From the IMG/VR virus record IMGVR_UViG_3300045988_087221: 64,000 bases of DNA; one strand, 5' to 3'. Below, piece by piece: positions 1 to 45,250 of the stretch. Source of the DNA: a virus. A program made the translations under genes and the position numbers. Position 1 is the stretch's first letter. Each line of letters starts with the position of its first letter. Below the pieces are notes generated by a model. It was not told the DNA's origin and ran no database searches. It saw nothing but the letters and a program-made list of their open reading frames with translations.

Positions 1-1
1 T

Positions 2-2506
2 GAAGATAATAAAGGGGTAGCTGAAATAGAAGTATAGTTCTATGATAATCAGGGCTTATGCGCCAAATATTTTATTAATAATTTAGTTTCTTACTCAGGT
101 ATTATAACAGAATACATACCATTAAATGGTAATTCTTCAAATTATAAGTTATCTAAATAGGATGGTAAAAAGTTAATACCTCATGCAGGTCAAATGTTTA
201 CAGACGGAAAAATACCAGAAAATGTTGATACTACTTTATCTTATGTTTATTTAGATACAAAAGCAGATAAATTGAAACCCGTAGAAGTTACTTATGATAA
301 GAAACGAAATATATTTTATAAGATAGATGATCCAAATGAATAGGAAGTAACCATTAGTTCTACTTCTCCAATATTCTATAATGATGTAGGTACTTTGTAT
401 AGTAATATGTTATATGCTGTTAAGATAATATATAAATATACAAGTAAAAATGTCTTAGGAGAGTATAATACTGAAGGAATTGAATGGGATAATTTTGAAT
501 GGAGATGGTTATGGACTAATACTATGTTTAATTAGTATTACTATAATGTAAAAGACTTTAAAGATAATTAGTTTGAATTAACATTAGATATAGGAGCCTA
601 GTATTATGCTAATTTTAAAACAAAGGATATTACTGGTTATGAAGGACCTCAAAATGATACTTCTGATATTTTTAAAGGATTAGGTTTAAATTTAAATTAT
701 ATAAATAATGGGGAAATATAGTATACAGCAGACTTAGGATTACAGAATACATATAATTCATTCAGTTTAAAAAAAGGTTCAAGTACTGATAACATATCAA
801 TTAATATATACTCTGGAAATTCTTATATATAGATTTAGGATAATATCTAGAATAATGAATATCTAAGACAATCTAATGATAATATAGCTCCTAATAATAT
901 CAATAAGAAGTATGAATATATTATAAAAAGGTAGGGCACCGATATGTCAGGTATTGAAAATCCATGGGATTCTAAAGATGCTTATAAAAATTACAAACCA
1001 TTATTTACTAGTACATTAGATGCAGAGGAGGCTTTAGATACAATAGAATATGTAGGTAATGATTTAAAATCTTATAACTCTTCTCTGGGTGTAAAAAGTA
1101 CTTTAAAAAAATTATACACAAGACAATCCTTAAAAATTAATCTAGTTAATCCAACTCTATATATAAAAACATATATTAATTAGACTACTGCTCATAAAGA
1201 AATGATTAATTTGATACAAAAAGGATATGAAGAATATGGTTTAACTCTAGAAGGCAATTCTTTTAACTTTAATTATGTATATTCATTATGGGCTAATAGA
1301 AGTGGTAATGAGGGTAAGGATAAGCAAAGATATATAGTAAAATGGAATCAGAGTAAAACTTTAAGTGCTATTAATGAGGCAGTGGGGGATTTAGATTATT
1401 TTAAAAAGGATGACGCTAAAGAAAAGTGGGATGAAATAAATAAGATGGCAGATAAGGCTGAATTATGGTAGATAAGAAAAGCCTATGGTACTTCCCGACA
1501 CTCAATCTGGAAAAGTAGTGGAGATTATTTTTTGAGGGAGGGTAAATATGATGTAAATTCTTCTGCATCTTTTGATCTTCCAAATGGATTTTTTATTAAT
1601 TTACTAAATTTTGGTACTAAGTATACTTATATATCAAAGACTAATGATACTAATAATGCTCTTAGAGATGGAATATTTTCAAATAATGAAGGCTTTACAG
1701 ATAATACTATATATGCTTAGTTAGCGTTTAACTATGGAGGGGATATTCATTTATTAAATGATTATGTTAATATATCTGCTAAAGGTAATAATATTCCTTT
1801 AAGAACTGCTTTACAAGGTCTTGCTAGTGAGTGGGCTGGATGGTTAGCTAATACATATATATTAAATCAATCTAATATAGTTTCTAGTTTGCAATTAAAT
1901 GAATTAATCTATCCCAACTCAGTGACTACTTTTACTAAAGATATTGTTTATTGTACAAAGGTAGAAAGTAATAATAATTAGTTATTATTAAACAATTATG
2001 ACTATAGTAAGTATCTAAGCTAGATATAGAAACATAGTAATAATGTTTTTAATTCAAATGTTACTGTATAGCTTAATAATATAACTAAAAATATTCCTAT
2101 ATAGATTTAGTTAAAGTCCTTAATACCAACAAGACCACAGCAATCCCAAAATATTACAATAAAGCATTTTGCTAATAGAACTTTTGATAACGTTTACATA
2201 TCTAATATATCAGCAAATAATTTATATTGTATTTAGAATGATACAATGATACCTATTAACAATAATCAGGAAGTATATGCATTAACTAGCTATAGTGAAT
2301 CTACTGCTAATTTCTCAAAGAATGTATGCAAGTTTTCTATACCTAAAACTTTCATGTATTAGGATGACTCTTTAATTCCTAGAAAATCTTCTCCAGCAGG
2401 TATTTAGCTATATTCTTAGAAATTTGTAGGATCAGGTTGGGGTGGAGCTATAGGAGACTTACTTATTTCAGATACAATACTAGTGAATGCTAAGCATGTT
2501 AAATAA
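2..2506 (+). CDS. Large virion structural protein, C-terminal 834 codons (5' end outside window); needs TAG read as sense
   Basis: I read frame 2 by eye from base 2 to TAA at 2504..2506 and it is interrupted only by TAG. Track ORFs 944, 1202 and 1532 are all in this frame. The stop overlaps the next ATG (TAATG). No family recognised. Confidence 0.7.
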
Positions 2507-5500
2507 TGAGTAATATAATAAATTTTAATGTACAAACTAAGGTATTGCCTACTAAAGGTAACTTAGTATATGAGTACAATCCATTTAGAAATTATAGACT
2601 AACCTAGATTAAATATGAATATTAGGAGTAGTTATATACAGAATAGGAATTAGAAGATAATTTTAATATTTTTATAGATAGGACATATGAAGTAGTACCA
2701 AATGCAACAATAAAAGATGGTAAAAAAATAGAACTTAAAGATAGCCCAGCAATAAATATATCTATTACTGCATTTAAAGATGAGTCCTATAGGCAACACT
2801 TTAAAGTTGAAGGTAGAGATACTTCTAATCATCCTGTAACTGATGAATGTGGTAATTACCTGCCTAATGGAACTCCTGCAGTTGCTTGGGTAATACGATA
2901 TAACAATAAATTATATTGGGAAGATGATTTTCTTAGTAATATAAATTCGATATTCACATATACTATAGGAACCCAATGGCTTAAAAAGACTGTTGTTGAG
3001 GGTAAAGAAATTTATGAGCCCCTCACTGAAAATTTACCTATATTACATGAAAAGGGAGAATTAGTAGATTTTGTAACAGATGAGTTAAAATTTGACTTAA
3101 AGCATCCAGTAAATATTGTACCTCAATATAGTTATGATGGTTCTGTTAACTTAATTATTAACGATGGTATAAATACCCCTAAACTAATTAATAGTAGGTT
3201 CAGTGCCACAGGTAAAAATACTTATGAGATAATAGACAGAAAAGGTAATAATGACACCAATATTTATGATTAGGGAGACTAGTTTGAGATAGACACTTCA
3301 TTATATAAAAGAGTAATTAGTATTCCTAAATTATCCTATGAGGGCACGTCTTCGGGTGGTAATCTTAAAGTTGGTAACTATCACTTTTATATTAAATTAT
3401 CAGATGCTGATGGTAATGAAACAGACTTTGTTGCAGAATCAGGATTAGTTAGTGTATTTATAGGATTTGGTAATCCAGATAGTTTAACTACAGGTGTTAA
3501 AAACTAGAATAGTTTTAAAACAGTAAATCTATATCTATCTAACATAGACCCAGCTTATGATTATTTATATGTTTATTATTCTAGATATACTGCAGAATAG
3601 GATGAAAATATTAACACTGAATACATAAAGATAGATAAGAAATTTGTAGTATCTAATTAGGGTACTTGTAATATAAGTATTAATGGATATGAACCAACTA
3701 TACCTATAACTGCTAGAGATATTAATGACTCTTTTGAGATAGTGGATGCTGCTAAAGCTCAAGTTTCTTGTCAGAATATGCTGTTTTTAGGTAATGTACA
3801 TAAACCTGAAATACCCTATAAAGAATTATCTGATTTGTCTTTACATTTTTTGCCTTATTTAAAAAATAAAGACTATGAATGTAAATTTGATCAGAACTAT
3901 AATATAAATACTTCATCTTTAGGTTATTGGGATTCTTAGTACATATATAACTACGTAGGTTATTGGAATAATGAGTTTTATAGACTTGGAATAGTTTATA
4001 TACTGCCTAATGGTGAATTAACTCCTGTGTTCAATATTAGAGGATGTAGCAATATAGTTGAATATGATTCGAATCTTAATTTATATTCAGATATACCATT
4101 ATATCTTAATAACGAACGTAATTATGTTAATTATAACGAAACAGATTACTAGCTAATAACTACTAATACTAGAAACAAAGAATTAAAATCTACAGCTCTT
4201 AATGAGAACGTTAAAGGAGTAATTAGATTTCAATCTGATAAAGATGCTGATACTATACATAGTTTAGATATTAGGATTAATAATGAAGCTATGTAGGAAC
4301 TAAAGAAATATGTTAAGGGGTTTTTCTTTGTTCGTCAAGCTAGAATCCCAACTATATTAGCTCAAGGTATTACACTAGGACTAGATTAGAACTCCTATAC
4401 TCCAACTATACCAACAGCAGGGGGTTTATTAGAACAGTTATCTAATTCTTTAGATAAAACTTATGTAACTACAGAAGATATTAATGACGTAAATTATATC
4501 TCTGAAGGATTTCTATCTAGATATTAGTTCAAGTTTAAAAAGAAATCTTCTAGTTTATGGAGTAAAATAGGTAAAATAGCTGCTATTACTGCAGGAGTTG
4601 TAGCCTTAGGTGCTGCTACAGTATTTACTGCAGGGGCTGCTGGAGCGTTAGTTGCGGGGTCAACATTAGCTGGAGCAGTTACCGCAGGTAGCACTACCTT
4701 AGGGGGAATCTTAGTTGCTGGAGGAGCTGTAACCACAGGACTAGGATTAGCTACTGGAGTGGCAGGAGCTTCTGCAATTATAGCTGTAGGAGCTGGAACT
4801 GCAGCGGGATTGATAACAGCTGCAATTGCTACAGGTCAAGAAATTAAATATGGTATTTAGACTTGGTAGCATAAAAAACTAGATGGAAGAAATACTAAAT
4901 GCCCTAAGGGATATAAAATAGCTGAATTAGATGAGTCTAGAAAAGTAGGAGGTGACTTTGAGAATAGAATTATAATTAAGGATAATTCTAAGAATAAAAC
5001 ATAGGTTATTTTATGTCCAGACTTTGAAGTAAACCAAGCTTATTTTAATTAGTTGTTTACAGGTAACGAACATTTAATAGAATCTACAAAAGCTTAGGGA
5101 AATAACTTATTATTGGGACACAGTTCTAATTATTTCTCAGAAGATGTCATTAATAACTATAGACATTATTATATGCCTGATTACTATGATACTAATTCTA
5201 GTATATCAGGAACTTACAAATTAATTAGTGTCCCTGAAGACGTTAAGTGTGTAGGATTAGATAATTTAAAGTTTAGAAGTAGAGCTGGTTATGCAGAGGA
5301 AGCTTGGAGATATGAATCTGTAGGTGATGAATATAAAACACAAAATGATAGAAATAATAAATCAGAAACAGATGAAGAAACAATAAGTAATAAGTAGACT
5401 AATTCTGATATAGTTAGGGGTATATATGGGGCTTATTTAGGAGTGGCTAATACTTCAGATAAATTAACTCCTGCGACTACTGTAAATATTTATATACCTA

Positions 5501-8500
5501 AATATGATAGTAGTAATACACTTAAGTATATTTAGATAAGAATGGATGATAATTCTACGTATTCTGCTATTACTGATAGAATTGACATATCAGAATCTGA
5601 TAATTACTTAGTAACTAAGAAATCTTAGTTAGTTAATGATTCTACTGACTTTTATAAAAAAGGATATTAGTTTTCTGCATTTAGAGGGGATTGTTATATA
5701 TGTCAATTTACTCATAGGGTAATAAGAAACTTTAATTCTCCTTCTGCTCCTTATAATGATGAAATTGTTGACGAGAATACTTGGAAAGATAACTATAATC
5801 CAGAAAAGACAGAGAGTTATGAGAATATAAACTTGGGAGATGTTAATGCTGTTTAGTTAGGTATGTGGGTAACTTTTAGAATACGTTCATCTTACAATTT
5901 AAATATACGTACTTTAGACAGTTCTAATGTTGATGAAAAACAAATGACAGGACACTCTAGAGGTTATTTCCCATATACTCCTATGAGTGTAGAGGGCACA
6001 TATAAAATTCCAGAATCTCATATTTATAATAAAGGATTTAGTAAATCCCTGAGTGATAGATGGAATAACTTATTGCCTGATGTTCCTTATATTAAGAATT
6101 GGTTTGGAACACGTATTATGTATTCTGATATTCATATTAACGATGCATATAAAAATGGTTATAGAGTATTTAGAAAGACTAATAGTGTTGATTATACTAG
6201 AGAATATGGAGAAATAACTAAGTTAATCTCGTTAAATTCCAATTTATTAATTATATTTGAACATGGAATTGCAGTTGCTCCAGTTAATTAGACAGCAGTT
6301 CAATAGGTATCAGGATAGCTTGTAACTACTTCTAGAGTGCTTCCAGAGACTCCAACTGTTATTTCTGATATGTTTGGTAGTCAATGGACAGATAGTATTC
6401 TGAAGACTCCAGGAAAAAGAGGAAATAATACTTAGTATGTATATGGTGTAGATACTGTAGCTAAGAAGATTTGGAAGACTGATGGAAACTCTCTAATCTG
6501 TATTTCAGACGTTAAAGTACAAGAATTTCTAAATAATAATATTACTCTTGGAGAAAGAGAGATTACACCTACATTAGGGATTCGTAATGTAAAAACTTGT
6601 TATAATTCTTATAAAGGAGATGTAATGTTTACTTTCTATGATAATACTACTGGTTTTTAGGAGAAAGTATGGAATTTGTGTTATAATGAATTATTAGATA
6701 AGTTTATTACATTCTACAGTTGGATTCCTAGTTTTATGGAGAATATAAATAATATACCATTCTCATTTAATAGAGACACTTCTAAGTGGATAGCTAAATT
6801 AGGTACGAGTCATTCTACAAGTTCTTTTGCAGATGGTATTACCTTAACTAATGTAGTATTTGATCCTACTTTAGATAACGAAGTTGTTTAGAATATATCA
6901 GTACCTATTAATTATTTAACTAAGAATGGAACTTATAAAACTACCTATGGAACTGTAATGACAACAAGTTATTTTATAGGTATATTACAATTATCTAATA
7001 GAGTAATTCCTAATTACAATGTTCCATATGATATTAGTTATGAATTATGTAGAGATATTTATGGTAATTATAAAAATTTTACTCTAAAGAAGTTAAAATT
7101 CTATGATAAAGATAACCATGAATAGGATACTTTCCCTTTAAGTAATGTAAAAGATGCCTTATTCCCAACTCACGATGTTTCAGTATATGGCTTATATATA
7201 AATCCTAAATCACCATTGTATACAAGAGATTTAATGGATAATACTGGAGTTAAGAGGGTATACTTAACTACTAAAGATGAAGAACATAATAAAATAAGTA
7301 GTGTATTTATACATAAAGACATGAGATCCATGCTACTTTCTGAACTTTATTATAGAAATAAAAAGAACCATGCTTATGCTGATACAGATGTAAATAAATG
7401 GGAGCCTAATACTAAAGAAAGTATAGACATTATAGAGTAGCAACTAACTGCGGATACTATATAGGGAGTAACTTCTGATAATTATTTAGAAAAGTTTAAA
7501 GAAACAAAGGCATATGAGGTTATCAACGATTTATATAACTAGTATGGTAAGTTATCAGCTTAGATAGAAGTATCTAATGATGTTTAGTTATCTAAATCTA
7601 CTAATATTATGTCTATGTATTTCAAATGGAAGGAATTAGTTACTTACTCTGATAACATGTTTAAGTACAATGATAGTCCTATATAGGCTTATATAGTTCA
7701 TGCACAAACTGTTACTTATTCAGAGTTAATTCATATTAATGCTCCTATATTCAAGAATCTACAAGGTAAAAGAGAAATGTTACCTAAAGATAAATAGATA
7801 AATCCTGATACTATAGTTAAACTATTAAATATCAAAGCTACTATAAATGCTACTATACCTAATACTGATCAATCACTAGAAGATTATTATTATAATAAGA
7901 CAGCTAGTTATAATGTAGCTACTTATGAATCTACTGTTGCAGTTATCCCTAAATGGAATATGTAGTTTTTAAGTACAGATTTCTGGAAACATGGTTAGGC
8001 AGGTTCATTTGATATAGCAGATGACATATATCCATGTTATTGGTATGGTAAATAGCATCAATTTGAATTCGAATTTATTGTAGTTAATGATCCTAGTGTC
8101 CATAAGATATTTACTAATTTGGAATTAATAGCTAATAAAGCAAAACCTGAATCTTTTCATTATGAAGTAATAGGAGAGGCTTATGATTTTGCAAAAGATA
8201 AACCAAATATGTATTTTAGACAAGAGGCTATGAAAGCTCTTTGGCAATATAATGGCTGTGATATTGAGTATAATAGCGACTTCCTGAAGATTTAGACTAG
8301 ACAATAGAATAAGTCGGCAGATTTACCACATAATTATTTTGCAAGAGCTAAGCACATTAATGAAGTAGAGGATAGTTATATAATGGCTTAGGTTGGAAAA
8401 CACGATTATAGACACTTATCTGGAGGCGAAATTGTATATTATCCAAATAGATAGGAGTTCAGAGTTTGGAATCACGTTCCTGCTATTGATGTTGATGACT

Positions 8501-9063
8501 AGACTGATACTTCAGCTTCTTCCTTTGGAGGAAGAGGTTTAATGGCTTCTAATATGCGTTATCTTGAGGATAGATGGAAAGTACAGATAAATCCTTTATT
8601 AATTACCTATAAAAATGAGTATGAAAGAAGGGATTCTACTAAGGCTTTATGTGCCCCAGAAAATTCTACTTGGAAAAATGGAGCAGGTACTAGAGCAGGA
8701 GATAAACTACCTCCATTACCTTTATATAATTCACCTATTCCAGATGCAGTAAAAGAAAGAGGCGAAATAGCCATTCCAGGATATTCATCTTCTGTATTGA
8801 CTGGATATTCAGAAACTACTGAAGGTAGAGATAATGCAATGTATAATTTATATAAGGTAGATTTTGAGAATGGAATACATCCATTTGATACATCCTCTTG
8901 GTTAGATGATGTGAATATTTATAAGTATAATTTTGGAAATGCTCAAAATAGAAAGGAAACTGATATGAGAGATAAATTTATAAAAATTAGAATTAGATAT
9001 TCAGGTAAAGAACTAGCAATAATTGATTTTATAAATACTATATATCAAGTTAGCTATGCATAA
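2506..9063 (+). CDS. Giant virion/tail-associated structural protein (2185 aa) with an internal Gly/Ala-rich hydrophobic segment; TAG-recoded
   Basis: ATG at 2506, TAA at 9061..9063. Track ORFs 3742, 5113, 5863, 6676, 7216 and 8542 are all in frame 1 and separated only by TAG. Compositionally coding throughout. No family recognised. Confidence 0.7.
4564..4846 (+). other. Gly/Ala/Thr/Val-rich hydrophobic (glycine-zipper-like, putative membrane-inserting) segment inside the 2185-aa protein
   Basis: Translates as KIGKIAAITAGVVALGAATVFTAGAAGALVAGSTLAGAVTAGSTTLGGILVAGGAVTTGLGLATGVAGASAIIAVGAGTAAGLITAAIATG. Its locally higher GC creates the spurious antisense ORF 4524..4736. Confidence 0.6.
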
Positions 9064-10651: not shown

Positions 10652-11300
10652 TTTATTTGTATCCTATAATTAGGTATAGGCTCCTTCTTACTTAGAGTCT
10701 CCTTAGATAGAATATACTCCAATAGGAGAAGAATTAACTAATTAGGAAAATTTAGATAGAATTTAGTCTAGAAATTAGAAAAAAGAAGGATTTGCAGGAT
10801 GGAATCCTCTAGAACAAAATACTTCAGAAGACAATTCAATAAATACTTCTCATACTCCTGCAAAGGGTTCTAAGTCCTTCAATTTAGCTATGACTTCTTA
10901 TTTAGCTAAACATCCTGAAGATGCTAAATATAGATAGACACTTACAGAAATAGCTGCAAAAGAATCTAATTTTAATCCTACTGTTAAAAATGCTAAGTCC
11001 TCCGCTAGTGGATATTTCTAGTTTATAAATAGTACAAGAAAGCAATATGCACCGCATTTAACTAAAGAACAATTTTTAAATAATCCAGAGGAATAGATTT
11101 CTGCTGCAGTTAAATTACTTAAAGCTAATAGAAATATATCTAGTAAATTCGCTAATTTAAGAGGACTTAGTTAGTTACAAGTTGATTATGGAATGTGGTT
11201 TAGTCCAGCAGCTTTAAGTCAATATCTTAAAACTGGTAAATCCAATTTTAAAGACCCACAAGGAACTAGTTTAATGACAGTACTAAATAAAATGGCTTAA
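10638..11300 (+). CDS. Lytic transglycosylase (SLT-domain) peptidoglycan hydrolase, likely virion-associated (220 aa); TAG-recoded
   Basis: ATG at 10638 is preceded by AAGGAGGT. The translation contains EIAAKESNFNPTVKNAKSSASGYFQF. This matches the SLT catalytic Glu-Ser ... G-x-x-Q signature, and the Q is encoded by TAG at 11019..11021. TAA at 11298..11300. Confidence 0.8.
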
Positions 11301-33800: not shown

Positions 33801-36800
33801 CCAAATGGTGAGGTAGTTACCGGAGAAAGACAGTAGTATGATTTTAAATATTAGGAAAATATAGTTAGACCCCATGATTTAAGACCTTCTTTACTTAGAT
33901 GGTAGGATTCTGAAACAGGAGAATATATGAATATATTCGATTCTCCAGTTATTAGAGACGCTTATACTAATCCTGAAGGTAAAAAAGCTAATCACCAATC
34001 ATTAGTTTAGGCTGAATTAAATAATATCCATAATGGAACTTATACTGATAGATTCGGTAACGAGAAAACTATTATGTAGGGAAGTTTACAGAATTATGCT
34101 GCTGAACTTGTGATGTCTAATATCTATAAAGATAAGTTTGGAATAGAAAATGAATCTCTTGCTGAAGTTCTTAAATAGGGAGAGGACTATTTTTATAAGA
34201 AGTTTAATAAAATAAATGCTCCTGCTAATACTAGTTATGATTTTGCTTTTGTAAAAGATACAGGTAATACTACTTTAATTACTTTAACACCAGTTAAAAA
34301 TAATGATTATATTTAGTATAAGGGATTTGAAGCCAGTTAGTTAAGCACTAATGATAAAGAAGAAATTTATTTAACTAGAGGTAATAGGGATTTATTTAAA
34401 GTTGGTAAATGGATTAACGCTCCAGATGTTACATATAAAGATGGGGAATTTATAAATAATGATGGTATAGTATTAGATCCTAATCAGTATAGATTAAGGG
34501 ATTTAGATGATCCAACTTCTGTTCAAAGACGTGTTGATTACATTAAATAGTATGTAGAAACTACTAAATAGATAGTAAAAGGAAGAGTTGTTTATAAAAC
34601 TAACACCCTTTATGAAATAGCTCCATTATCTGATTTTGAGATAGCTTTAGGTAATAAAGAAGATGCAGCTAAATAGAGAGCTTCTCTTGTTGCTAAAATT
34701 TATAGAGCAGATAATTATAAATTAGCTTAGGTAAATAACTCTAAAACATATAGTAAGGATGCTTTTAATCATATTAAGTCTGCAAGTAGTTTCTTCTTGG
34801 GAAATTAGTTAATTGGTTAGGATGTAAAAGACTTATTATAGACTTAGTTAGATAGTATTACAACTACTAATCAATAGAAATCTAAAGATGAACTTATAGC
34901 TTTATCTAAAGAAAATAAGGCTACGTATAAAGAATTATTAGAAGCTTTCTTAAGAAAAGAAGCACATAAACGATATATTAGTTTCTTAGATTCTTAGAAC
35001 TTTATAGCTGCTCGTATTCCTGCTCAATCTTTATAGTCCTTTATGACTATGAAAAATATAGCATGGACTGAAAACTCTAAAAATATATCTTATGTAAGTC
35101 ATTTCTAGACTTATTTATAGGGTTCTGACTATGATATTGATAAGGCTTATATAATGGGACAGTCTTATGATGAAAATGCTGCTTATATAGGATGGAGTCC
35201 TTTATTTAATTATAATAGTGTAGAAACTCTACAAGCTAGTAAGACTTTACCTATTCCTAAACGTATCGTTGTATATAAAGGTGATTATGATATATCTAGT
35301 GAGATAAATACTTTAATTAATTTAGCTGAAAACTAGGATGTAAATGAAGTATTATAGAATGTGCATAAATTGGGTAATGCAGCTTTCATTAGATAGTTAT
35401 CTAAAATAATTAGAATTGCTGAACAACATAATGGTATTAATTATTCAGGTGATGCCAAGGTATTAAACACTTTAATAGAAACCATTAATAAACATGAGAA
35501 TTACCTTATTTCTGATAATGTAGCAGAATCAGCATTTAAAAATGTAGCTTCTGCAAACATTTATTAGGTATCACATGATATTAGAAATCGTGATTAGGCA
35601 TATACAGCTATTGCTATGGGTATTATGCGTAAAGCCGCTGATAATTCTCCAAAAGGTAACTAGGCAGCTACTTTAAATATGCTTAATCCTATGACTAAAT
35701 ATATTATGTAGTATCAAAACCTTGTGGGTAAGAATGTGATTAGTGTGGCGGCTAATGGCGAAAAAGTATGGTTTAATACTTTTTATTATTGGACAAAAGT
35801 GCTAAAGTCTGGTAATTAGGAGGCAATAAATAAATTAAAATTTTAGCATACTTATAAAAGAATAAATGGAAGAGCTAAGGGCACCCCAATAGAATAGACT
35901 ATTAATCATATTCCTGATTTAAATAAGTATGATGAACAAATAAAGTCTACATTATAGAGTCAATTTGGGGTTCTTGATAATGAAGATTATAAATATGTTG
36001 ATCAATTAATCTCTTAGCTTCTTTCTGCAGCCACTGATAATGCTAAAGAGCTTATTCTTGCTAAGATAAATGCAGGAACTAATTTTGCTAGAATGTATGT
36101 ATATGGAATGATGATGGGATTAAACATAAACGATTTAGTTGCATTTATGACTAGTCCAGTATCAGAACTCATAGATTAGTTAGCTAATCCTAATATGTTC
36201 TAGAATGAAAGTGGTAATGCATCTATGGCTATTAATTTAGCTTAGGGTATTGTTGGAGTTAAGAAATTCTTACATGGACAAATAAGAACAACTTAGGAGG
36301 ATATCGATACTGGAGAGCAAAGAACTACTTGGATAAATAAAAATAGATATGTAACTAACTATTTAAAAAATACTGATATTTATGATTTAGTTAAATAGAA
36401 TGCTGGATTGTCTGAGGAAGAAGATATTAAAGGGTTAGGAAGTATTATGCAAGCTTATATTAATTATGCTATAATTAATAAGGATGTAGATTTAACTGAA
36501 TTAATTGATACTGATGATGTTGAAGTTAACTCTTATCTTAGATACTATCAAGATTTAACAGATAAATTGAGACAGGTTAGAGCACAGTATAATAAAGATT
36601 CTGATTTTAAAGGTGATATAGAAGAATTTAGAAATCTATATAATGATGCCTCTGAAATTTCTACAATATCATCTGCTTGGTTAGGACTTAATTAGGGATT
36701 ACCTACTTCTGAGTTAGATTTACTTTCTAGAATGAATCGTATGTCTAAAATAGTTAGTGACCGAGAGAAAGCTCTAAATATGAATGTATCTAAAATATAT

Positions 36801-38138
36801 CCTAAAGAAGGGGCTAAGGAAAAGGAAATTTAGGAAGCAGAATAGGCTAAAGAATAGTTAATTAATAGACTACACGAAAATAATCCTACTTTGGACCCAG
36901 AGTATATAGCAAATGAGTTAGATATTGCTCACGAACAAGATTTAATTAATAACTTTGATATATATAAATATTTAGTAGATGATGAATATAGAAAACAAGC
37001 ATCTGATTACTATGATATAATTAAAAGTACTGCTAATGTGTTTGAAATGATGGAGTAGATTCCACATTATAAATAGATTTTATAGTTGTTTAAGTCACTT
37101 GTTGTAGCAAATAATACCTTTGCATCCAAAAGTAGATTAGTTAATAAGCTATTGGCTAATTCTGAAAGTGTTAATGATAAATAGTTAAATGGAGTAATTA
37201 AATATGTGGATAAGTTAAATACATTATCTTTTATGAGAACACTCACTCCTATAGCTGTTAATTAGGTAGATGGATTTGATCCATATTTTTAGAGCATTAA
37301 AGTCAACAAAATCGATCCAAGTACTATAAATGGTATAGCTACTTTAAAACATTGGGTTGAGCATGAGTTTCTTAGTTACTTAAAGGAAAATTACTCTAAT
37401 AATTCTTTAGTTAAACATCTTACCTTAGTGCCTTATAATAATACAGAGGTATTAGCAACTGATATAGATTTGCTTAATCCTGATATAACCATATAGTCTA
37501 GAGAGGCTTATGATGATATATTAAGAGGAATGGCTGATTTTGAGACTAGATAGTACTAGGGGGATTATACTATTGCAGATATTTTACAAATGTATAATAT
37601 AGCAGTAAACAATAACTAGTATGGTGGTGAACGTCTTACTACATCTTTTAAAGTTTGTACTAATCCTAAAAATATTTTAAATTAGTATTTAAAATTTATA
37701 TCCGATTAGGACTGGGATATCGAAACAGATTAGGAATATAACTATACTGATTATTAGATAGCAGCGGCTCCTATAATCAGTACTTATGCGGAAAGCTACC
37801 ATTAGGAGCCTTTTGTTAAAGTAAATAACCCTATTCGGAGATATGTACTCAAAAAATTAGATAGTAATAACTAGTACTAGGAGTATGATTTAATTCCACC
37901 GCCTGTACCAGATGAAAACTATCAAAGTAAAATGAATAGATTGCAGAATTTTAGTGAGAATAGTCCTTTAGAAATGCCTAATATGCATAATACATTATTC
38001 TTAACTAAGACTGTGGATTTTGATGGTAAATTTGAGGATTTAGATGCAGATGAACAAAAATAGACTATAGATGGTATTAGAAACTTGTTAACTTAGTATA
38101 TAACTTCTAATAAAGCTTCACTTATAAAAGACTGTTAA
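27840..38138 (+). CDS. Giant protein (3432 aa) with two double-psi beta-barrel RNAP-like motifs: candidate crAss-type virion-packaged RNA polymerase; TAG-recoded
   Basis: ATG at 27840 (TAATG coupling), TAA at 38136..38138. Track ORFs 28044, 28737, 29544, 31839, 33528, 35154 and 36408 are all in frame 0. Confidence 0.7.
31803..31829 (+). other. Possible beta-subunit-like DPBB segment (ADGSAQINPF)
   Basis: DDIDSADGSAQINPFQSILENKALGSQ loosely parallels bacterial beta ...dG.pvDiilNPlgvPSRMniGQ. This is tentative and by eye only. Confidence 0.35.
35007..35141 (+). other. Beta-prime-like DPBB catalytic segment: AARIPAQSLQS ... GSDYDIDKAYIM
   Basis: It parallels NRAPTLHRLGIQAF ... NADFDGDQMAVH of multisubunit RNAPs and the DYDGD motif of QDE-1-type enzymes. 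D-Y-D-I-D is encoded at 35127..35141. Confidence 0.6.
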
Positions 38139-38141
38139 TTA

Positions 38142-40727
38142 ATGGGATGTGATATAAAAGTATTAGTTAATAATTATGTAGACGGTAAATTATAGACTTA
38201 GGAGCAAACATTATTAAAAAATACTGATGAGGATATAGATATAAATAGAGCAGTTGAATTAATTACCCAATTGCCTAAAGCTGAACGTACTAAACTAGCT
38301 GCTCTTTTTAGGGCAGCTAGAGTACAAGCTTTAAAAGAATCAGATGTAGAAAAACATGAGTTTATTAGTAATACTACTCTTGGATAGCTTTAGGATAAAT
38401 ATCCAGATTTAAAAGAAGCTTTTCCTGATTTAGAGATTAATGAGAATCATACTATAGTAGCTTGTAATCAAATTTAGTTAAATGGTTCTAAGTATTTTGG
38501 TAGGGTGATAAGTCCTAGTGGTTCAGATATTTTCTTTATAAACGGATTTTATGGTGCTTAGGACTTATTTAATTATCTTGATTAGAGATAGAAAATAAAG
38601 AAAGCTGTCAATAACAACACACTTAGAGAAGATTTGAAAGAATATCAAGAGGAACTAAATTCTATAATAGCTAAATATAATATTACTGGGGAAAAACTTT
38701 TATTAGATTATTTAGATAATAAATCTTAGTATAAGCCTTTTAAAGATTCAAATGGAAATAATATAATTCCTTCTAAGACTCTTAATAATATATTATGTAA
38801 GATATAGGACATATATAATTCAGACATGGGTAAGTCAGACTTAGAATTAGCTATAAAGAGCGTAAAAGATCCTAAACATAAAAATAGATTTGAATATAAA
38901 CTTACTATGAGAAATTTATATTCGGCACTTTCTAATTATATACAAGATATGCCTTCTTTTTAGGATTTTAATAGTTTAAATTAGGAAGATTTATAGGCAT
39001 TCTTACATAATATATTCTCATTTGACCCTAATTTAATGAAAGCAAAAGTTTCTAAAATAATAGGTGGGGAAGCAAAGGAAGTTATTAAAGAAGCCGTAGA
39101 TAAAAAGATTCCACAAACTGAAATTAAAAAGAAATGGAAAGAATTATAGGAAGAGTGGGATAAATAGGGAGTTAAACTAGATTCTTTAGCTAAAACTATT
39201 AAGAACAGTCCAGAACAGGTAATTGGATTATTAAAAACAGCATTAGCTAATTTAAACCCTGATATATCTATTTAGGATGATAAAATATAGGTTAAATATA
39301 AAACTAAAGAAGAAGTATAGTAGAAAGAATCTGCTAAATAGTTAATTTTATCTTTTCCATATTCGTCCTTAGGTGAGGTATATAATTTTGGTTATGATTC
39401 TAAATATTTATTTAGTCCTGTAAAAGAAGAAGAAGGAGTTGATACTGATGGTATGTACCATGGAGTTTATATTTATAAATATTATAATCCAAGTGCTAAA
39501 GTTACTCACTATGCTATATCTAGAAGTATAATATCTCCTAATTCATATTCTCAAACATTTAGCTCTTTAGAAGCAGCAAAAGCTAAAATAGATGATTGGA
39601 ATGCTACACAAACTCTTAGAGAAGCAGGATTATACTCAATTAAGATGCACCCAACTGCTCCACGTACTTCTAAAATAGAATTAGAAGGAGTTAAAGAGGG
39701 GTAGATAATAACTACCCTGGATATTTAGCTACCTAGTATATCTAAGTTACCTGAAATATTTAACTAGGTATTAAATAGTACCTTAGCAGATTTTAGAAGA
39801 GTATTTCCTGATATAGAAGGTATTGAAACTTTAAATACCCCTGAGAAAGCTGCTGCTTTTGTTTATTTATTTACTAAGGGATTAAAAACAGCTGAAAATA
39901 AAAATACTGATATTAATTAGTTGATTAAAAGTAATTAGAAATTAGGTAAGGAGATAGTAGATTAGATAAATAAAGCTGAAACCAAAAGTTATCTAGTAGA
40001 AGAAATGCGAGGTAAAATAGCTACTCTCAAATATCTAGAAAATAACGGTAATAAAATAGATATTACTGGTAAATTTGGGGATGAGGCAGCTACAAAACCT
40101 ACTACAGCTTCAATGGAATAGGCAGTCCAATATTTTAATGAAAAGTTTGGTATAGCTATAAATACTATGTCTCAAACTGAACTAAATGACTTTGGGTAGT
40201 AGAATAAAATTGATGTAAAAAATGCCAGAGCCTTTATATATAATGGACAAATTTATATAAATAGTAGTAATGCTAACGTGTCTGATGTATTTCATGAGAT
40301 GGCTCATATATTTTTAGGGGTTTTAAAGGCTAACTATCCTGACAGTTATCAAGCGGTTATAGCTAAATACTAGCAAAAGCCTAAATTTAGAACTAATCTA
40401 GACTATATTAATGAAGCCTACACTAACTTTGCAATGTAGGATAAATTAGAGGAGTGTGTTGCAGATATGATAGCTGATTAGATGTTTTAGAAATAGAGTT
40501 TACTTAAAGAATTTAAAGGTCAGGATTTTCTAGAAGATTTCAAATTCATATTTGACAATTTTCCTCAAAATGTAGTAAATCCTATAGCTGAATCAGGACT
40601 ATCTTTTGACACGTTTATGAAAGAAGGAATTTCAGAAAATTCAGAAGCTATAAAAAGAAATATGAAGATAGCTAATTTAATTAGATAGAATATAGAATTA
40701 GGTAAAATAAAAGAATTTGGTTGTTAA
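38142..40727 (+). CDS. Virion-associated protein (861 aa) with an HExxH zinc-metallopeptidase-type motif; TAG-recoded
   Basis: ATG at 38142, TAA at 40725..40727. Track ORF 39453 is in frame. VSDVFHEMAHIFLG has HEMAH at 40293..40307. Confidence 0.65.
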
Positions 40728-43700
40728 TGGGATGTAAGTATAGATTTAATAACAAAGTATATAATTCGTATCAATCTTTAATAGAAGAATTTAGTGATGG
40801 TGATATTTAGAGTGCTCTAGCTATATTGTATAGTTTAGAGCATGATAAATAGACCCTGTTATACGATAAATTAGATAAACTTAAAAAGGAATATAAATTT
40901 TCTGCAAATAAAGAATCTCCTATAGATGATGTAGATATAAATGCAGGAAAGGATTTCACTACTTAGACATTTATTGATTCAGCTTACTTTAAAGTAGATG
41001 GTAGACCTCCTATGTTTCGTATAGATTTTGATAACGAATACTTACCTATAGTTAAAGAATAGTTAATAAATTAGGGATATACAGAATAGCAGGCGGAAGA
41101 TACTATAAAACAAAGAAAGTAGAATTGGGAAACTATAGCTAAAGATGCTGCTGATGCTCACCGAATTATAGTCTCTTCTACTAGTTAGGATGATGACAGA
41201 CATTTTGCTGGAGCTACTTTAAATACATCTTTACAACCAGTATTTAATTAGTTACATGACGTAGTTAACTCTGTAGAAAAAGAGGTACTTAAGAAAAATA
41301 GAGGAAATGGAGCTTATTTATTGAGGAACTTAAATGTCTCTGCTAAACTACGTGATTAGATAGAAAATATTATAGGACATATTGACTATTTATGTGTAAA
41401 ACCAGATGGAACTTTAGACATATATAATCTTGCTGTATCTATAGATAATGAATCTGATTGGGCTGCTGTTAAAAAAGAAAAGTACAAATATAAACTAGCG
41501 TTCTTAAAACGAATTTTAGCATATAATGGTATAAATGCTACTGATATTAGAGTTAATCTTATTCCTATAAAGGTTAAATATGATAATTAGTTCCAGAATA
41601 TTACAGGAATAGAAGCATCTAAGGCTATTAGCTATGATATGAAGGATTCTCAATATACTATGTAGAAATATGATAATATAGTAGCTAATTTTATAGATTC
41701 AAATATAGAGGCAATTGATATTAATGATGAAGATTTTAATACTATCAATACACAATTAGCAAGAATCTTTCCTAATTAGAGTATAGAAGTTACAGCGAGC
41801 GGTATTAAAGAATCAGCTAAAGGATGGGTTAAAGCTAATTGGAATATGATAGCTAAACCTTCAGAGGAAAAAGGTTGGGATATACTGCTCCCTGGATAGA
41901 AAGAAGCTATTCATGTAGACGATACTAGAATAGGTGAAAATAATGAACAGGTTGTAGCCATGGTAACTCAATTGGAAGATTAGTTAATAAATTCTACACC
42001 AGCATAGAAAGCATCTTATCGTGTAGTAGCAGATATACAAGCTGCCTACGAATAGGGACTGGATTCTTTCTATTGTTCCCTAAAAAATAGCTCTTTTATA
42101 CAAAAGTAGTTAAATAAGTATTTTGAATTTGATACTAGAGACCCGGATGGTAAACCAGATTACAAGTGGGAACTAATAGATAATAGCACTTTAACTAATG
42201 CTAATATATTATTATTTAAGCATAAAGTTACTAATTAGATTGATGTTGTTACAATTACTCCATTTGATGTTAGCACTAAAGTTAAATATAAAGGAAGAGA
42301 AAATTTATTAGGTTCTTATCTTACAGACTTAAATAATAGGAATTTTACAATGCCAGCTAACTATGGCAATATCGAAGCTATAAAGACTCTCACAGCTTTA
42401 AATTAGATATTACCTAAATTGCCTTTTACTCCTAAATTGGGAACCTTAAAAGTGGTGGGAATATCCAATTTGCATGATAAAAAAGGTTGTGAAATGGACA
42501 TATCTATGTTATTACCTCAATTTAAAACAATAGTAGATGTAGTTAAAGAAAATAATAGTTCACTAAGTTTAAATAATAACTTTGAAGGTGTAGAAACTAT
42601 AGATCCTTCTGAATTAATGATTCAAACTTGGAGAGAAGCTTTAAGTAGTCATCCGGAAGTATCTGAACTTAAGGAAATAGAAGATGATATTACATCAAAA
42701 ACTAATTTAGATGGAACTATAGTAGATGGTTTAGAAACTACTAAAACTGTAGAAGGTAAATTAATTAAGCTTTAGACTATTATTGACAAAATAGAGCATA
42801 TGGATAGATTACCTAAGAATCCTAGAAGAATCAAAGAGTTAATTTATTCAGCAGATAAAACATTATCCTCTTTAGCAAAAGTTTATATGTCAGCTTTAAG
42901 AGCGTTAAATATGTATAATGGAGATTTATCTCTTGAGAATGAAGCTTTTGGACAGATGTCTGAATATGTATTTAAAACTCAAAGTATCCCTAATACAAAT
43001 GTTCGTATAACTGGTTTTATGTTTTAGTAGGCTGTAAACAAAGTAGCCGATAGAGTTTTACATGAATATTCTCCATTACGTAAAGTTATGAATAAATTTT
43101 TTGAAGCAAAAGGATATACAGCATTACGTAATAGTACTATAGGTGATGAAGTGCGAATCTTTAAAAATCTTTACGATCCATATTATTTAAGTGTTGGGGA
43201 ATTAAAATTTAAAAATCCTTATGATGAAGCTAACGACTTAGATACTTCAGAAAGAGAATTTTTAAAAAATGTTTTATTTGAAATAAATAAAATAAGATAT
43301 GAAATGCGAGGTTAGACTTGGTAGTTTACTGGAATTAACGATTCGCATCTTATTGATTCTATTAAAAATACAAATTATTTGGATGTTCCTTTGGAAAGAG
43401 CTTCAATTGCTACTCGTAGAACTAAAATCAAATAGAGTTTTAAGGAATTTGGACAAAGGTGGATGAGAAGGATAACACATCCAGTAGATGCTTATAATGA
43501 ATTTATGGATGACACCCTTAATGAAGAAGAGAAAGCTGAAAGAAAAGCTGACTTAGAAAATTTACAAGCATATAACCCATTTAAAAGATCTGAAGATTCT
43601 AATAGACGAGCTAACTGGTTAAATGAAAAGGGATTGGATTACTTTGAAACTAATGTTGAAAATATTCTAATTGACTTTATGGAAAAGCATATTTAGTCTG

Positions 43701-45250
43701 TTGAATATTAGAAGATGTTAACTAGAACTAAAGGTATTTTACTTGATTTGTATTTAAAAGGAGAAACAGAAGACGATTTTAGAAATGTAGAACATACAGT
43801 AAAAACTATAAATGATTTTTTGTCAGTTTCTGTATTTAATCAGTCTATAATGGAACCTCAAACTAAAACTGTTGAAGCTTTAATTGATCCTATTAGAAGA
43901 GCTGTTAGTAAATGTTATATTGCTGGAAATGTAGCTGGAACTGTACGTGATACTATTCAAGGTTTATTTGAAAACTTAGCAAGAAGTATAAATAAGTATC
44001 AAACAGATATAACTGCTGCTGAAGTTCTTAGTGGATATAAGGAGGTAATAGTAGAAGGACCTCAAAATATTATGACTATTAGTAAACTTAATCAGTTAAA
44101 TCTTAAGTATAGATTATCTAATATGGATATTGCTAAAATTTCTGAGGGTTAGAAAACTTGTAGAGGTGGTATTTTAAATTGGGAAAACTGGGCTTACTCC
44201 ACTCTTTATGGACCTGACTATTTAAATAGAATGGTATTATTTACTGCACAAATGAAACATGATGGAGTATTTGATGCCTACTATATTAAAGATGGTTAGT
44301 TAGTTTATGATTGGAGACGTGACAAACGTTTTGATTTATATGCAAAAGGAGATAGAACAGATGAAGTTGCTTATTAGAAGTAGCGTTCTTTATACCTTAG
44401 TTTAATGCGTATGATGAATTAGGAAAATGGAACTAGCTTAACTGAGGGAGATGATTTACCTGATGCATATACTCAAGCTCAAATAACTTCATTTAAAAAT
44501 CTTGCAGACAGTATATATGGAGCATATAACTAGAGTACTAAAGCTAAATATGAGAACATTGCAATAGGTCGTAATTTTGCAGTTTTTTCTACATGGATGA
44601 ATGGTTTAATAGATAATTATGGAAAATCAAGACAAATCTCAAATAGTTCTTATCATGCAGAGCAAGAAACTAGAAACGGTAAACCTCTATACTGGAATAA
44701 ATATGGGGAAGCAGTAACCTTAGAAGAAGGTGGTGATGAAAATACTCCTGTAGTTAAATATGTTCCAGATATGGTCCAAGGAATAATTTATACAATAGCT
44801 GATACTCTTAAAGAATTTCATTATAATGGTATAGATGGTTTTAAAGAAAACATTTGGAATAATAAAGTACAATAGGCTAACTTACGTAAATTATTCTCTG
44901 ATTTATTAGTTAGTCTGATAGTAGCAGGTCTATTTGGATTAGTATTTAATCCTATGTATAAAGACCATAAGAAAAATGCAGATGGTTAGAACTTAATAGG
45001 TAATGCAATTACTGAACTTATATATAAAGGAGGTCATAGTGCTTTTGACGGATTTAAAGGACCATTAGCAGTATTAGACTATTTAGGTAATTCTACTAAT
45101 CCTGCTACCTATAAATTATAGTCTAAAATAATTAATGATATGTGGAACTTAGTTACTGGAAATAAATCTTTAGGAGAAACAGTAATGAATTCACAAGCAT
45201 TATTTAGAAGTTTTCAAGATACTTATAAATTATGGGCTAAAAATCAATAA
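40727..45250 (+). CDS. Large virion-associated protein (1507 aa) with a C-terminal hydrophobic helix; TAG-recoded
   Basis: ATG at 40727 (TAATG coupling), TAA at 45248..45250. Track ORFs 42419, 42800, 43088, 43463, 43715 and 44597 are all in frame 2. A predicted helix LLVSLIVAGLFGLVF lies near 44900. Confidence 0.65.

What the first reader, a model, noticed from the sequence alone, without database searches (positions are those of the whole stretch)
1..45250. TAG is read as a sense codon across a 45-kb late/virion gene block
In the standard code the + strand has no ORF longer than 173 codons over 45 kb. Even so, the region is compositionally coding and has no large non-coding gaps.

All track ORFs fall into long runs that share one frame:
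- frame 2 for 2..2506;
- frame 1 for 2506..9063;
- frame 1 for 18619..27840;
- frame 0 for 27840..38138;
- frame 2 for 40727..45250.

Everywhere I read between these fragments codon by codon, the only interruptions were TAG. I never saw TAA or TGA, and no frameshift was needed.

With TAG as sense, 12 genes appear. They have ATG starts, TAA or TGA stops, and phage-typical TAATG/ATGA junctions. TAG density is very high: 16 by my count in 9056..9478, and several hundred across the block by extrapolation (not counted exhaustively). Each of these genes carries its first TAG within about 40 codons.

Stop-codon recoding of late genes is documented for crAss-like and other gut phages. This window is a strong instance of it, and standard gene callers would shred it.
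Basis: partly seen in the sequence, partly recalled or inferred. Interest (0 to 1): 0.9.

Follow-up and report, generated by a model that had tools for sequence, protein, structure and literature searches.

The report
Amber codon read as glutamine
The 45-kb virion-gene block of this ~190-kb crAss-like gut phage uses the stop codon TAG as a glutamine codon, while the neighbouring replication genes avoid TAG entirely; this is a clear but already well-documented kind of phage code switch.

Summary
On the + strand of 1..45250, twelve back-to-back genes contain 529 in-frame TAG codons (3.5% of codons) and no in-frame TAA or TGA. About 1,500 TAA/TGA would be expected in a random frame. All twelve genes end in TAA or TGA. 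The convergent − strand block (45.5–64 kb: DNA polymerase A, sigma factor, ThyX, ligases) has no TAG, either in frame or as a stop, in 26 ORFs.

TAG means glutamine. In relatives at least 80% identical, TAG sites are replaced almost only by CAA (77) or CAG (52). A likelihood test on a distant relative favours Gln by 85 log units.

Read with TAG=Gln, g2 matches the Crassvirus muzzle protein family and g9 gains a helicase domain.

The window has no tRNA. I walked about 110 kb of related 183–190-kb genomes and found a canonical tRNA(CUA) in 14 contigs. It sits in a small standard-code operon roughly 70 kb beyond the window. I could not check the window's own contig.

TAG-to-Gln recoding of late genes is published for crAss-like phages, including the 145–192-kb Zeta group. 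Public gene calls for this very contig already use it.

The parts
2..2506 (+). g1, the 3' part of a virion-block gene cut by the window edge (834 codons here, 24 TAG). It is 1,351 codons long in relatives.
2506..9063 (+). g2, 2,185 aa with 46 TAG. It is a homologue of the Crassvirus muzzle protein (Pfam crAss_MUZ, E=1.4e-18, residues 927-1416; crAss_MUZ_C matches weakly).
9056..10651 (+). g3, 531 aa with 31 TAG. It is Gln-rich and no family was detected.
10638..11300 (+). g4, 220 aa with 10 TAG and a transglycosylase-like domain (phrog_4067, E=1.3e-10).
11300..11923 (+). g5, 207 aa with 9 TAG. It is 51% identical to a protein of MT835492.1.
12038..12325 (+). g6, a small 95-aa Gly/Ala/Gln-rich gene with 2 TAG. 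It is the only late gene that prefers CAA/CAG to TAG.
12387..16757 (+). g7, 1,456 aa with 62 TAG. No family was detected.
16760..18622 (+). g8, 620 aa with 22 TAG. No family was detected.
18619..27840 (+). g9, 3,073 aa with 121 TAG. It is a giant protein with a RecD-like helicase core (AAA_30 at residues 1609-1801, UvrD_C_2 at 1899-1947).
27834..38138 (+). g10, 3,434 aa with 130 TAG. It carries a DYDID (DxDxD-type) motif, but no profile or PDB support for an RNA polymerase assignment was found.
   Evidence: called as a 3,434-aa product on public contigs
38142..40727 (+). g11, 861 aa with 35 TAG. No family was detected.
40727..45250 (+). g12, 1,507 aa with 37 TAG. It is the last large gene of the recoded block.
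45259..45444 (+). Small 61-aa ORF rich in Cys and His, with no TAG, directly after g12.
45449..45534 (-). Two strong terminator-like hairpins (16 and 17 pairs, each followed by a T run) between the two convergent gene blocks.
   Evidence: 2 found against 0.4 expected
45540..64000 (-). Replication and nucleotide-metabolism block compatible with the standard code. It encodes DNA polymerase A (54924-57110), a sigma-70-like factor (57690-58535), ThyX (51040-51930), NUDIX, phosphoesterases and RNA/DNA ligase-like proteins. Its 26 ORFs have no in-frame TAG, and their stops are 17 TAA and 9 TGA.

Best explanation
The window covers the convergent junction of the two large gene blocks of a ~190-kb crAss-like gut phage, probably of the Zeta group.

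The virion/late block (+ strand, 1..45250) is written in genetic code 15: TAG is a glutamine codon, and only TAA and TGA terminate. The replication block (− strand) contains no TAG at all, so the unmodified host ribosome can translate it at the start of infection.

The phage lineage carries a canonical amber-suppressor tRNA (anticodon CUA, U1-A72 pair). Its gene lies in a small operon that is itself free of TAG. Once this tRNA has accumulated, presumably charged with Gln by the host glutaminyl-tRNA synthetase, the TAG-laden virion genes become translatable. Before that, every one of them aborts within its first 4-41 codons. The code switch therefore acts as a translational timer or lock on the late genes.

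Shown here:
- TAG is a sense codon.
- TAG corresponds to Gln.
- Early genes are TAG-free and late genes TAG-rich.
- The clade has a tRNA(CUA).

Inferred:
- the timing of expression;
- charging by host GlnRS;
- near-complete loss of RF1 termination at UAG late in infection. This is needed because single ORFs contain up to 130 TAG codons.
For: - Sense codon: 529 in-frame TAG against 0 TAA/TGA in 15,023 codons, where about 1,506 TAA/TGA are expected.
- Independent assemblies: the same layout occurs in separately assembled contigs from ENA, Logan, JGI and IMG/VR and in GenBank MT835492.1.
- Gln, distant relative: residues opposite TAG in alignments with MT835492.1 are enriched 4.65-fold for Q. Gln wins the likelihood comparison by 85 ln units over Lys.
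- Gln, four strains: codon swaps at TAG sites in g10-g12 are CAG 10, CAA 4, AAG 3 and others 3.
- Gln, 20 relatives: in alignment segments of at least 80% identity, window TAG sites align to TAG 1,300 times, CAA 77, CAG 52, and the next codon (TCA) 9.
- Homology spanning TAG codons: crAss_MUZ in g2 and helicase domains in g9.
- Early block: 0 TAG in frame or as a stop in 26 ORFs.
- Suppressor tRNA: a 73-nt tRNA with anticodon loop CUCUAAA, nearly invariant in 14 related contigs, lies between two TAG-free ORFs.
- It is absent, as an exact match, from 185,579 bacterial and archaeal species genomes.
- Literature: code 15 in late genes of crAss-like phages is described in PMC7886860 and bioRxiv 10.1101/2021.08.26.457843, and was proven by metaproteomics in PMC9523058.
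Against: - No tRNA lies in the window. The tRNA(CUA) was seen only in related contigs, not on the window's own contig (ENA NODE_6_length_190276 / JGI Ga0243299_100003).
- Roughly 35-40 kb of the genome was never examined.
- The tRNA is not specifically similar to the phage's own tRNA-Gln(UUG): 68% identity, no better than to several other tRNAs. Its charging identity therefore rests on the codon-substitution data and on the known tendency of CUA suppressors to be glutaminylated.
- 'Late' timing is inferred from gene function only.
- In the more distant part of the early block of relatives, 11 of 77 ORFs end in TAG. TAG avoidance is therefore not genome-wide outside the window.
Confidence: 0.9

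Rival explanations
1. TAG is a sense codon but encodes an amino acid other than glutamine. One candidate is Tyr, inserted by the second, odd tRNA of the lineage, whose anticodon-loop variants read as GUA, UUA or CUA. Lys or Glu are other candidates.
For: A conserved tRNA in the same genomes has an anticodon loop that differs between strains (CATTAA, CACTAA, CACCTAA, TGTAA and others). Some versions read as GUA (Tyr) and some as CUA. TAG-to-AAG swaps also occur (3 of 20).
Against: - Tyr ranks 16th of 20 in the likelihood test, and Lys and Glu trail Gln by at least 85 ln units.
- In close relatives, CAA plus CAG account for 129 replacements against at most 9 for any other codon, and TAT/TAC are not among the top ten.
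- The odd tRNA has 5- to 8-nt anticodon loops that are not canonical, whereas a canonical tRNA(CUA) exists.
Confidence: 0.03
2. Read-through does not depend mainly on the phage tRNA(CUA). The phage disables host release factor 1, and UAG is then read by near-cognate host or phage tRNA-Gln. Alternatively, the host supplies the suppressor.
For: - No suppressor could be placed on the window's own contig.
- Borges et al. detected suppressors in only 40% of TAG-recoded phages (bioRxiv 10.1101/2021.08.26.457843).
- ORFs with 121-130 TAG need more than 99.4% read-through per codon for a 50% yield, which is hard to reach by tRNA competition alone.
- Every gene in the window stops at TAA or TGA, both of which RF2 reads.
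Against: A canonical, sequence-invariant tRNA(CUA) is conserved across the clade and has no exact copy in 185,579 prokaryotic species genomes. No release-factor gene or RF1-directed function was recognised among the proteins scanned. The two mechanisms are not mutually exclusive.
Confidence: 0.1
3. The host itself uses a code in which TAG is a sense codon, so the phage merely mirrors its host and there is no temporal switch.
For: None specific. Some phages of recoded hosts do mirror the host code; code 25 cases are mentioned in bioRxiv 10.1101/2021.08.26.457843.
Against: The 26 replication-block ORFs in the window contain no TAG codon at all, against 3.5% in the adjacent block. A uniformly recoded host would not produce that contrast. 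The crAss-like phages closest by DNA polymerase A have Bacteroides hosts written in their records. I take Bacteroides to use the standard code; this is my general knowledge and was not tested.
Confidence: 0.03
4. The block is not functional coding sequence. It would be decayed pseudogenes, or a sequencing or assembly artefact that creates TAG.
For: None beyond the fragmented appearance under the standard code.
Against: There are zero in-frame TAA or TGA where about 1,500 are expected. TAG positions are conserved: 1,300 TAG-TAG matches in relatives. Identical sequence occurs in independent assemblies. Protein-family matches span TAG codons.
Confidence: 0.005

Closest known systems
Zeta-group crAss-like phages with amber reassignment (Yutin et al. 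2021, PMC7886860; Zeta survey PMC12386605)
   Same: - Human-gut origin.
- Genome of 183-190 kb (published range 145-192 kb).
- DNA polymerase A.
- About 20 tRNA genes.
- Homing endonucleases or introns splitting NrdD and PolA in some strains.
- TAG reassigned to Gln mostly in late genes.
- A suppressor tRNA with anticodon CTA.
- Virion proteins that BLAST barely detects against other phages.
   Different: Membership was not tested by TerL, MCP or portal phylogeny. GC content is 30%, at the low end of the published table (28-38%). I could not find any of this lineage's contig names in the papers I searched. A phage tmRNA and a tRNA with a hypervariable anticodon loop are not mentioned in the parts of those papers I read.
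Code-15 crAss-like phages validated by metaproteomics (Peters et al. 2022, PMC9523058)
   Same: TAG is read as glutamine in crAss-like phages of the human gut. This is the same reassignment I infer here from codon substitutions.
   Different: In that study the evidence is peptide evidence for two specific phages. No proteomic data were available here.
Stop-codon recoding as a regulator of late and lytic genes (Borges et al., bioRxiv 10.1101/2021.08.26.457843)
   Same: Replication genes are in the standard code, and structural genes carry in-frame TAG. A suppressor tRNA is encoded in a standard-code context. The model is that translation of late genes waits for the code change.
   Different: In their ~105-kb crAss-like set only four gene families prefer TAG to CAA/CAG. 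Here TAG supplies 48-70% of Gln codons in 11 of 12 late genes and 3.5% of all codons. No release-factor or aminoacyl-tRNA synthetase gene was seen in the parts of the genome I examined.
Amber-reassigned Crassvirales genus infecting Segatella copri (bioRxiv 10.64898/2026.08.21.746148)
   Same: The genome has the same two-part layout, a TAG-free replication domain and a TAG-rich structural domain. It also encodes a GatB/YqeY-type 'Glu-tRNA(Gln) amidotransferase' protein, as this lineage does just beyond the window (L004 4254-4694).
   Different: That genome is 101 kb and has no detectable tRNA(CUA). This lineage is about 190 kb and has a canonical one.

Membership tests
Phage genetic code 15 (TAG to Gln) recoding of late genes | Long reading frames interrupted only by TAG, never by TAA or TGA | tested here: met
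   529 TAG, 0 TAA and 0 TGA in 15,023 in-frame codons; about 1,506 TAA/TGA expected by chance
Phage genetic code 15 (TAG to Gln) recoding of late genes | TAG positions correspond to glutamine in homologues | tested here: met
   Gln is best by 85 ln units. TAG swaps with CAG or CAA in 14 of 20 strain-level changes. In relatives at least 80% identical, replacements are CAA 77 and CAG 52 against at most 9 for any other codon.
Phage genetic code 15 (TAG to Gln) recoding of late genes | Recoded codon confined to structural/late genes, with replication genes readable in the standard code | tested here: met
   The + strand block has 3.5% TAG. The 26 − strand ORFs have no in-frame TAG and no TAG stop. 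'Late' is inferred from the virion functions of g2 and g4.
Phage genetic code 15 (TAG to Gln) recoding of late genes | Phage-encoded suppressor tRNA with anticodon CUA | tested here: met
   Met at the level of the lineage: a canonical 73-nt tRNA(CUA) occurs in 14 related contigs. It is not in the window and was not verified on the window's own contig.
Phage genetic code 15 (TAG to Gln) recoding of late genes | Peptides with Gln at TAG positions | not testable with these tools
   No proteomic data were available. Published for other crAss-like phages (PMC9523058).
crAss-like phages (Crassvirales and relatives), Zeta group | Signature virion proteins of crAss-like phages | tested here: met
   g2 matches Pfam PF25731 crAss_MUZ at E=1.4e-18 and 66.9 bits (cut-off 27), and PF25729 crAss_MUZ_C weakly. 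MCP, portal and TerL lie outside the window and were not examined.
crAss-like phages (Crassvirales and relatives), Zeta group | Giant virion-block protein with the DxDxD catalytic motif of a two-barrel RNA polymerase | tested here: inconclusive
   g10 contains 'GSDYDIDKAY', but there was no PHROG, Pfam or PDB sequence match. No structure was predicted.
crAss-like phages (Crassvirales and relatives), Zeta group | Genome of 145-192 kb from the human gut, with many tRNAs and with introns or homing endonucleases | tested here: met
   Source and sister contigs are 183-190 kb. I counted 19 tRNA genes in a close relative, contig IMGVR_UViG_3300045988_081687, read as L194 and L317. The clade's tRNA(CUA), seen only on other related contigs, would make it 20. 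HNH and LAGLIDADG genes split NrdD and PolA in strain L006, and L316 has a group I intron.
crAss-like phages (Crassvirales and relatives), Zeta group | Placement inside the Zeta clade in TerL, MCP or portal trees | not tested
   These genes are outside the window, and no reference Zeta genomes were available in the searchable collections. Only MT835470.1 and MT835492.1 matched g2.

The most novel reading that the evidence does not exclude
TAG use here is far heavier than in the published crAss-like examples. TAG is the majority Gln codon in 11 of 12 genes, and single ORFs hold up to 130 TAG codons. Every gene in the window terminates at an RF2-readable stop (TAA or TGA). Together these facts suggest that late in infection RF1-dependent termination at UAG is essentially abolished. 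In that case the phage would actively neutralise host RF1 with an as yet unidentified factor, rather than merely out-competing it with a suppressor tRNA. Accessory elements of the same genome (a YqeY/GatB-like protein, a phage tmRNA, and a tRNA whose anticodon loop differs from strain to strain) could belong to that code-change apparatus.
Probability: 0.25. Interest if true: 0.6.

Novelty: already known. Interest (0 to 1): 0.22.

Why it matters
Standard gene callers shred this block. The JGI calls on the identical contig are fragments of 33-145 aa, so recognising the code is essential for annotating an abundant group of gut phages.

Biologically it is a clean, extreme example of the 'two codes in one genome' arrangement that is thought to lock late-gene translation until a phage suppressor tRNA appears. 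The extreme TAG load (130 in one ORF) makes this lineage a good system for asking how a phage reaches near-total reassignment of a stop codon in a host that uses the standard code. None of this changes current understanding.

Tried and rejected
- **Family searches.** PHROGs found nothing for 8 of the 9 late proteins I scanned, the exception being the transglycosylase domain of g4 (g2, g7 and g9 were not scanned against PHROGs). Pfam found nothing for g1, g7, g8, g11 or g12, and only one sub-threshold match (DUF3850) for g10. A PDB sequence search with the DxDxD region of g10 found nothing, so the RNA polymerase idea stays a lead only.
- **tRNA in the window.** ARAGORN (default and relaxed settings) and Rfam found none.
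- **MT835492.1.** It has no tRNA(CUA). It is probably a truncated record, because its close relatives reach 176-181 kb.
- **Odd tRNAs in MT835492-like contigs.** Several oddly structured tRNAs in these contigs (L104, L105) were inspected, including an 84-nt one that ARAGORN labels 'Stop(tta)'. I could not interpret them.
- **The odd tRNA.** I first took the tRNA with loops CATTAA, CACTAA or CACCTAA for the suppressor. I set it aside once a canonical tRNA(CUA) turned up further along the genome. It remains unexplained.
- **His tRNA.** A conserved tRNA found by Rfam but missed by ARAGORN turned out to be tRNA-His.
- **Placing the tRNA on the window's own contig.** I tried to place the suppressor on the window's own contig through its neighbouring gene. 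This returned only sister contigs.
- **Contig names.** None of the lineage's contig names were found in Yutin's supplements or in the paper library.
- **Bacterial genomes.** The suppressor sequence has no exact match in the bacterial and archaeal genome collection.
Full report
**Observation**

The window is 30.1% G+C. Under the standard code, the + strand of 1..45250 has only four stop-to-stop ORFs of at least 150 codons (781 codons in total).

If TAG is treated as sense, eleven ORFs of 210-3,434 codons tile the block, 14,964 codons in all. No comparable gain comes from freeing TGA or TAA.

With ATG starts assigned, there are twelve genes:
- Their stops are TAA (10) and TGA (2).
- Neighbouring genes overlap by 1-14 nt or are separated by 2-114 nt.
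- ATGA and TAATG junctions are present.

In frame there are 529 TAG, 0 TAA and 0 TGA in 15,023 codons. In the other two frames TAA and TGA together make up 10% of triplets, so about 1,506 would be expected by chance (log10 P = -689).

**Surroundings**

A small + strand ORF without TAG (45259..45444) ends the block. Two strong terminator-like hairpins on the − strand follow (45449..45534).

From about 45.5 kb to the window end, the genes run on the − strand and converge on the recoded block. They include:
- DNA polymerase A with a 3'-5' exonuclease domain;
- a sigma-70-like factor;
- ThyX;
- a NUDIX hydrolase;
- phosphoesterases;
- RNA/DNA ligase-like proteins (further Pfam labels).

In 26 − strand ORFs (5,218 codons) there is no in-frame TAG, and none ends in TAG (17 TAA, 9 TGA). 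The window therefore holds a sharp boundary between a TAG-rich and a TAG-free domain.

**Which amino acid**

TAG makes up 3.52% of late codons. CAA plus CAG fall to 2.14%, from 3.20% in the early block. Three tests point to glutamine.

1. The only GenBank phage record with nucleotide similarity is MT835492.1, an unannotated 121.6-kb record from human faeces. It has the same two-domain layout and late proteins 20-51% identical to those here. In those alignments the residues opposite TAG are enriched 4.65-fold for Q. A likelihood comparison of all 20 amino acids puts Gln 85 ln units ahead of Lys, with Tyr far behind.
2. Four strains were recovered through a neighbouring early gene. Across g10-g12 they show 20 distinct codon changes involving TAG: 10 with CAG, 4 with CAA, 3 with AAG and 3 others.
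3. Twenty IMG/VR relatives cover g1-g7. In alignment segments of at least 80% identity, window TAG sites face TAG 1,300 times, CAA 77 and CAG 52. The next codon, TCA, appears 9 times. In the reverse direction, relatives' TAG sites face CAA 143 and CAG 97.

Exchange with the two Gln codons is what synonymous drift predicts if TAG means Gln.

**Gain in homology**

Translated with TAG=Gln:
- g2 matches Pfam crAss_MUZ, the Crassvirus muzzle protein (E=1.4e-18, above the curated cut-off).
- g9 shows AAA_30 and UvrD_C_2 helicase domains.
- g4 has a transglycosylase domain.

These matches span many TAG codons. The other nine proteins have no detectable family. g10 carries a DYDID motif reminiscent of the virion RNA polymerase of crAss-like phages, but neither profiles nor a PDB sequence search support that assignment.

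**What the phage is**

Exact-protein look-ups place the window on contigs of 181-190 kb. ENA ERZ1745351 NODE_6_length_190276 and JGI Ga0243299_100003 are identical to the window over the overlap I examined. IMG/VR holds about twenty sister contigs of 140-190 kb.

The DNA polymerase A is closest (43-47% identity) to those of crAss-like phages such as IAS virus, cr116_1 and the PhiCrAssBcn isolates. The muzzle-protein region finds only two unannotated GenBank records by tblastn.

The following features fit the Zeta group of crAss-like phages (PMC7886860; PMC12386605):
- the genome size;
- the gut origin;
- about 20 tRNA genes;
- DNA polymerase A;
- NrdD and PolA split by homing endonucleases in some strains;
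- a group I intron in one relative.

That group is reported to reassign TAG or TGA, mostly in late genes. I did not test clade membership by phylogeny.

**How TAG is decoded**

The window has no tRNA. I walked outwards through related contigs: about 94 kb to the right of the window and about 7 kb to the left.

The right-hand walk, through what I take to be the early region, contains:
- a tRNA cluster (Ala, Gly, Asp, Thr, Met, Tyr);
- a tmRNA;
- a second tRNA cluster (Arg, Phe, Trp, Lys, Asn, Glu, His, Ser, Gln(UUG), an odd tRNA, Ile, Met).

Five to ten kilobases beyond that second cluster, 14 related contigs carry a canonical 73-74-nt tRNA. It has the anticodon loop CUCUAAA (anticodon CUA) and a U1-A72 first pair, and its sequence is almost invariant. 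It lies on the strand opposite to the early genes, between two TAG-free ORFs of 132 and 106 aa. It is therefore encoded in a context the standard code can express. It has no exact copy in 185,579 bacterial and archaeal species genomes.

I could not place it on the window's own contig, and about 35-40 kb of the genome remains unexamined. Its body is no closer to the phage tRNA-Gln(UUG) than to other tRNAs. Charging with Gln is therefore inferred from the codon data and from the documented tendency of CUA suppressors to be glutaminylated (cited in bioRxiv 10.1101/2021.08.26.457843).

**Mechanism and its weak points**

The best-supported model is the published one. Early genes are translated by the unmodified host apparatus, and the suppressor tRNA accumulates. 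Only then can the virion genes, each of which carries a TAG within its first 41 codons, be translated to full length.

Two quantitative points stand out:
- TAG supplies 48-70% of Gln codons in 11 of the 12 genes. Borges et al. found only four TAG-preferring gene families in their ~105-kb crAss-like set.
- ORFs with 121-130 TAG need about 99.4% read-through per codon for a 50% yield. At 90% read-through the yield would be about 1e-6.

This implies near-complete loss of RF1 termination at UAG. It is compatible with the exclusive use of RF2-readable stops in the window. Whether the phage actively disables RF1 is unknown. I give that reading about 25%.

**Comparison and novelty**

The phenomenon is established in the literature:
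- the reassignment to Gln;
- its restriction to late genes;
- the accompanying suppressor tRNA;
- its occurrence in 145-192-kb gut crAss-like phages.

The sources are PMC7886860, bioRxiv 10.1101/2021.08.26.457843, PMC12386605 and bioRxiv 10.64898/2026.08.21.746148. It was confirmed by metaproteomics for two other crAss-like phages (PMC9523058).

The public gene calls on the ENA and Logan copies of this very genome already give products of 1,507, 861 and 3,434 aa, whereas the JGI calls are shredded. I therefore file the finding as already known: a correct reading of a textbook-quality instance. It is of modest interest, mainly for its extreme TAG load.

**Verdict**

Novelty is low and I score interest at 0.22. 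My confidence that TAG is read as Gln in this block is at least 0.9. My confidence that the clade's tRNA(CUA) is the decoder is about 0.8.

Noticed in passing
Related loci: L313 2568-2642, L316 4776-4850, L317 6671-6746, L285 1387-1460, L340 3038-3111, L439 13770 (outside the window): A tRNA that is otherwise nearly identical between strains has an anticodon loop that differs in sequence and length (5-8 nt): TGTAA, CATTAA, CACTAA, CACCTAA, TGGTAA, CTAGGTAA, TTAGGTCG. Read from the 3' side, several of the loops contain GUA, UUA or CUA. It coexists with the canonical tRNA(CUA). Its function is unknown. It could be a second decoder of UAN codons or a decoy for anticodon nucleases; both ideas are speculation.
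   Followed up: partly
L280 7996-8329, L283 7906-8241, L317 17097-17430 (roughly 50-60 kb right of the window end, in relatives): The lineage encodes a tmRNA (Rfam RF00023, 55-59 bits, E about 1e-18 to 1e-20). It may matter for ribosomes stalled at UAG before the suppressor is abundant.
   Followed up: no
L004 4254-4694 (about 4.3 kb beyond window position 64000): A 146-aa protein with a YqeY (GatB-like) domain sits in the early block. A 2026 preprint on another amber-recoded Crassvirales phage likewise reports a Glu-tRNA(Gln) amidotransferase-type gene. It may help to charge or handle the suppressor tRNA.
   Followed up: no
window 9056-9110, 12038-12090, 16760-16800, and internal sites in g3, g7 and g12: Several late proteins start with, or contain, a short recurring motif: K/Q-F-Q-(Q/E)-G-G, or (K/E)-E-G-G. 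Examples are MIFKFQQGG in g8, MQFIKKFQEGG in g6, LKEGGQ and LEEGGK in g3, FKEGGS in g7 and LEEGGD in g12. It could be a processing or packaging signal. Unexplained.
   Followed up: no
window 57690-58535 (− strand), and the 87-aa gene just upstream of it (L004 14242-14505): The early block encodes a full sigma-70-like factor (regions 2, 3 and 4). Next to it lies a small protein with a Pfam 'Sequestin' match. This suggests that the phage redirects host RNA polymerase.
   Followed up: no
window 13997-14698 (− strand): A 233-codon antisense ORF overlaps the 179-codon TAG-free, Gly/Ala-rich stretch of g7. It is probably a by-product of composition rather than a gene.
   Followed up: no
whole window compared with relatives: Virion-block proteins diverge much faster than replication proteins. 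Against IMG/VR contig _081687, the NrdD of the source contig (ENA NODE_6, read as L004) is 99% identical, while the 208-aa TAG-free stretch of g2 compared is only 89% identical. Against MT835492.1, early proteins reach 91% identity, while late proteins are 20-51% identical.
   Followed up: partly
L400 1844-2863 and 2-619 (late genes about 5-7 kb left of the window start): TAG density is uneven in the late block. A 339-codon ORF has a single TAG and a neighbouring 205-codon ORF has none, while adjacent genes have 4-17.
   Followed up: no
L430 849-3974 and L443 225-2579: Beyond the suppressor tRNA lie further TAG-rich ORFs (13-20 TAG each). They run in the orientation of the early genes, so recoded genes occur on both strands of the genome.
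   Followed up: no
L317 1546-1636 and 691-775: Two phage tRNAs have unusually long variable arms for their anticodons: Trp(CCA) at 91 nt and Arg(UCU) at 85 nt.
   Followed up: no
L006 1271-4693 and 15943-19029; L316 14974-15230: In some strains NrdD and DNA polymerase A are split by HNH or LAGLIDADG endonuclease genes, and one relative has a group I intron. This fits the intron-rich Zeta crAss-like phages.
   Followed up: no
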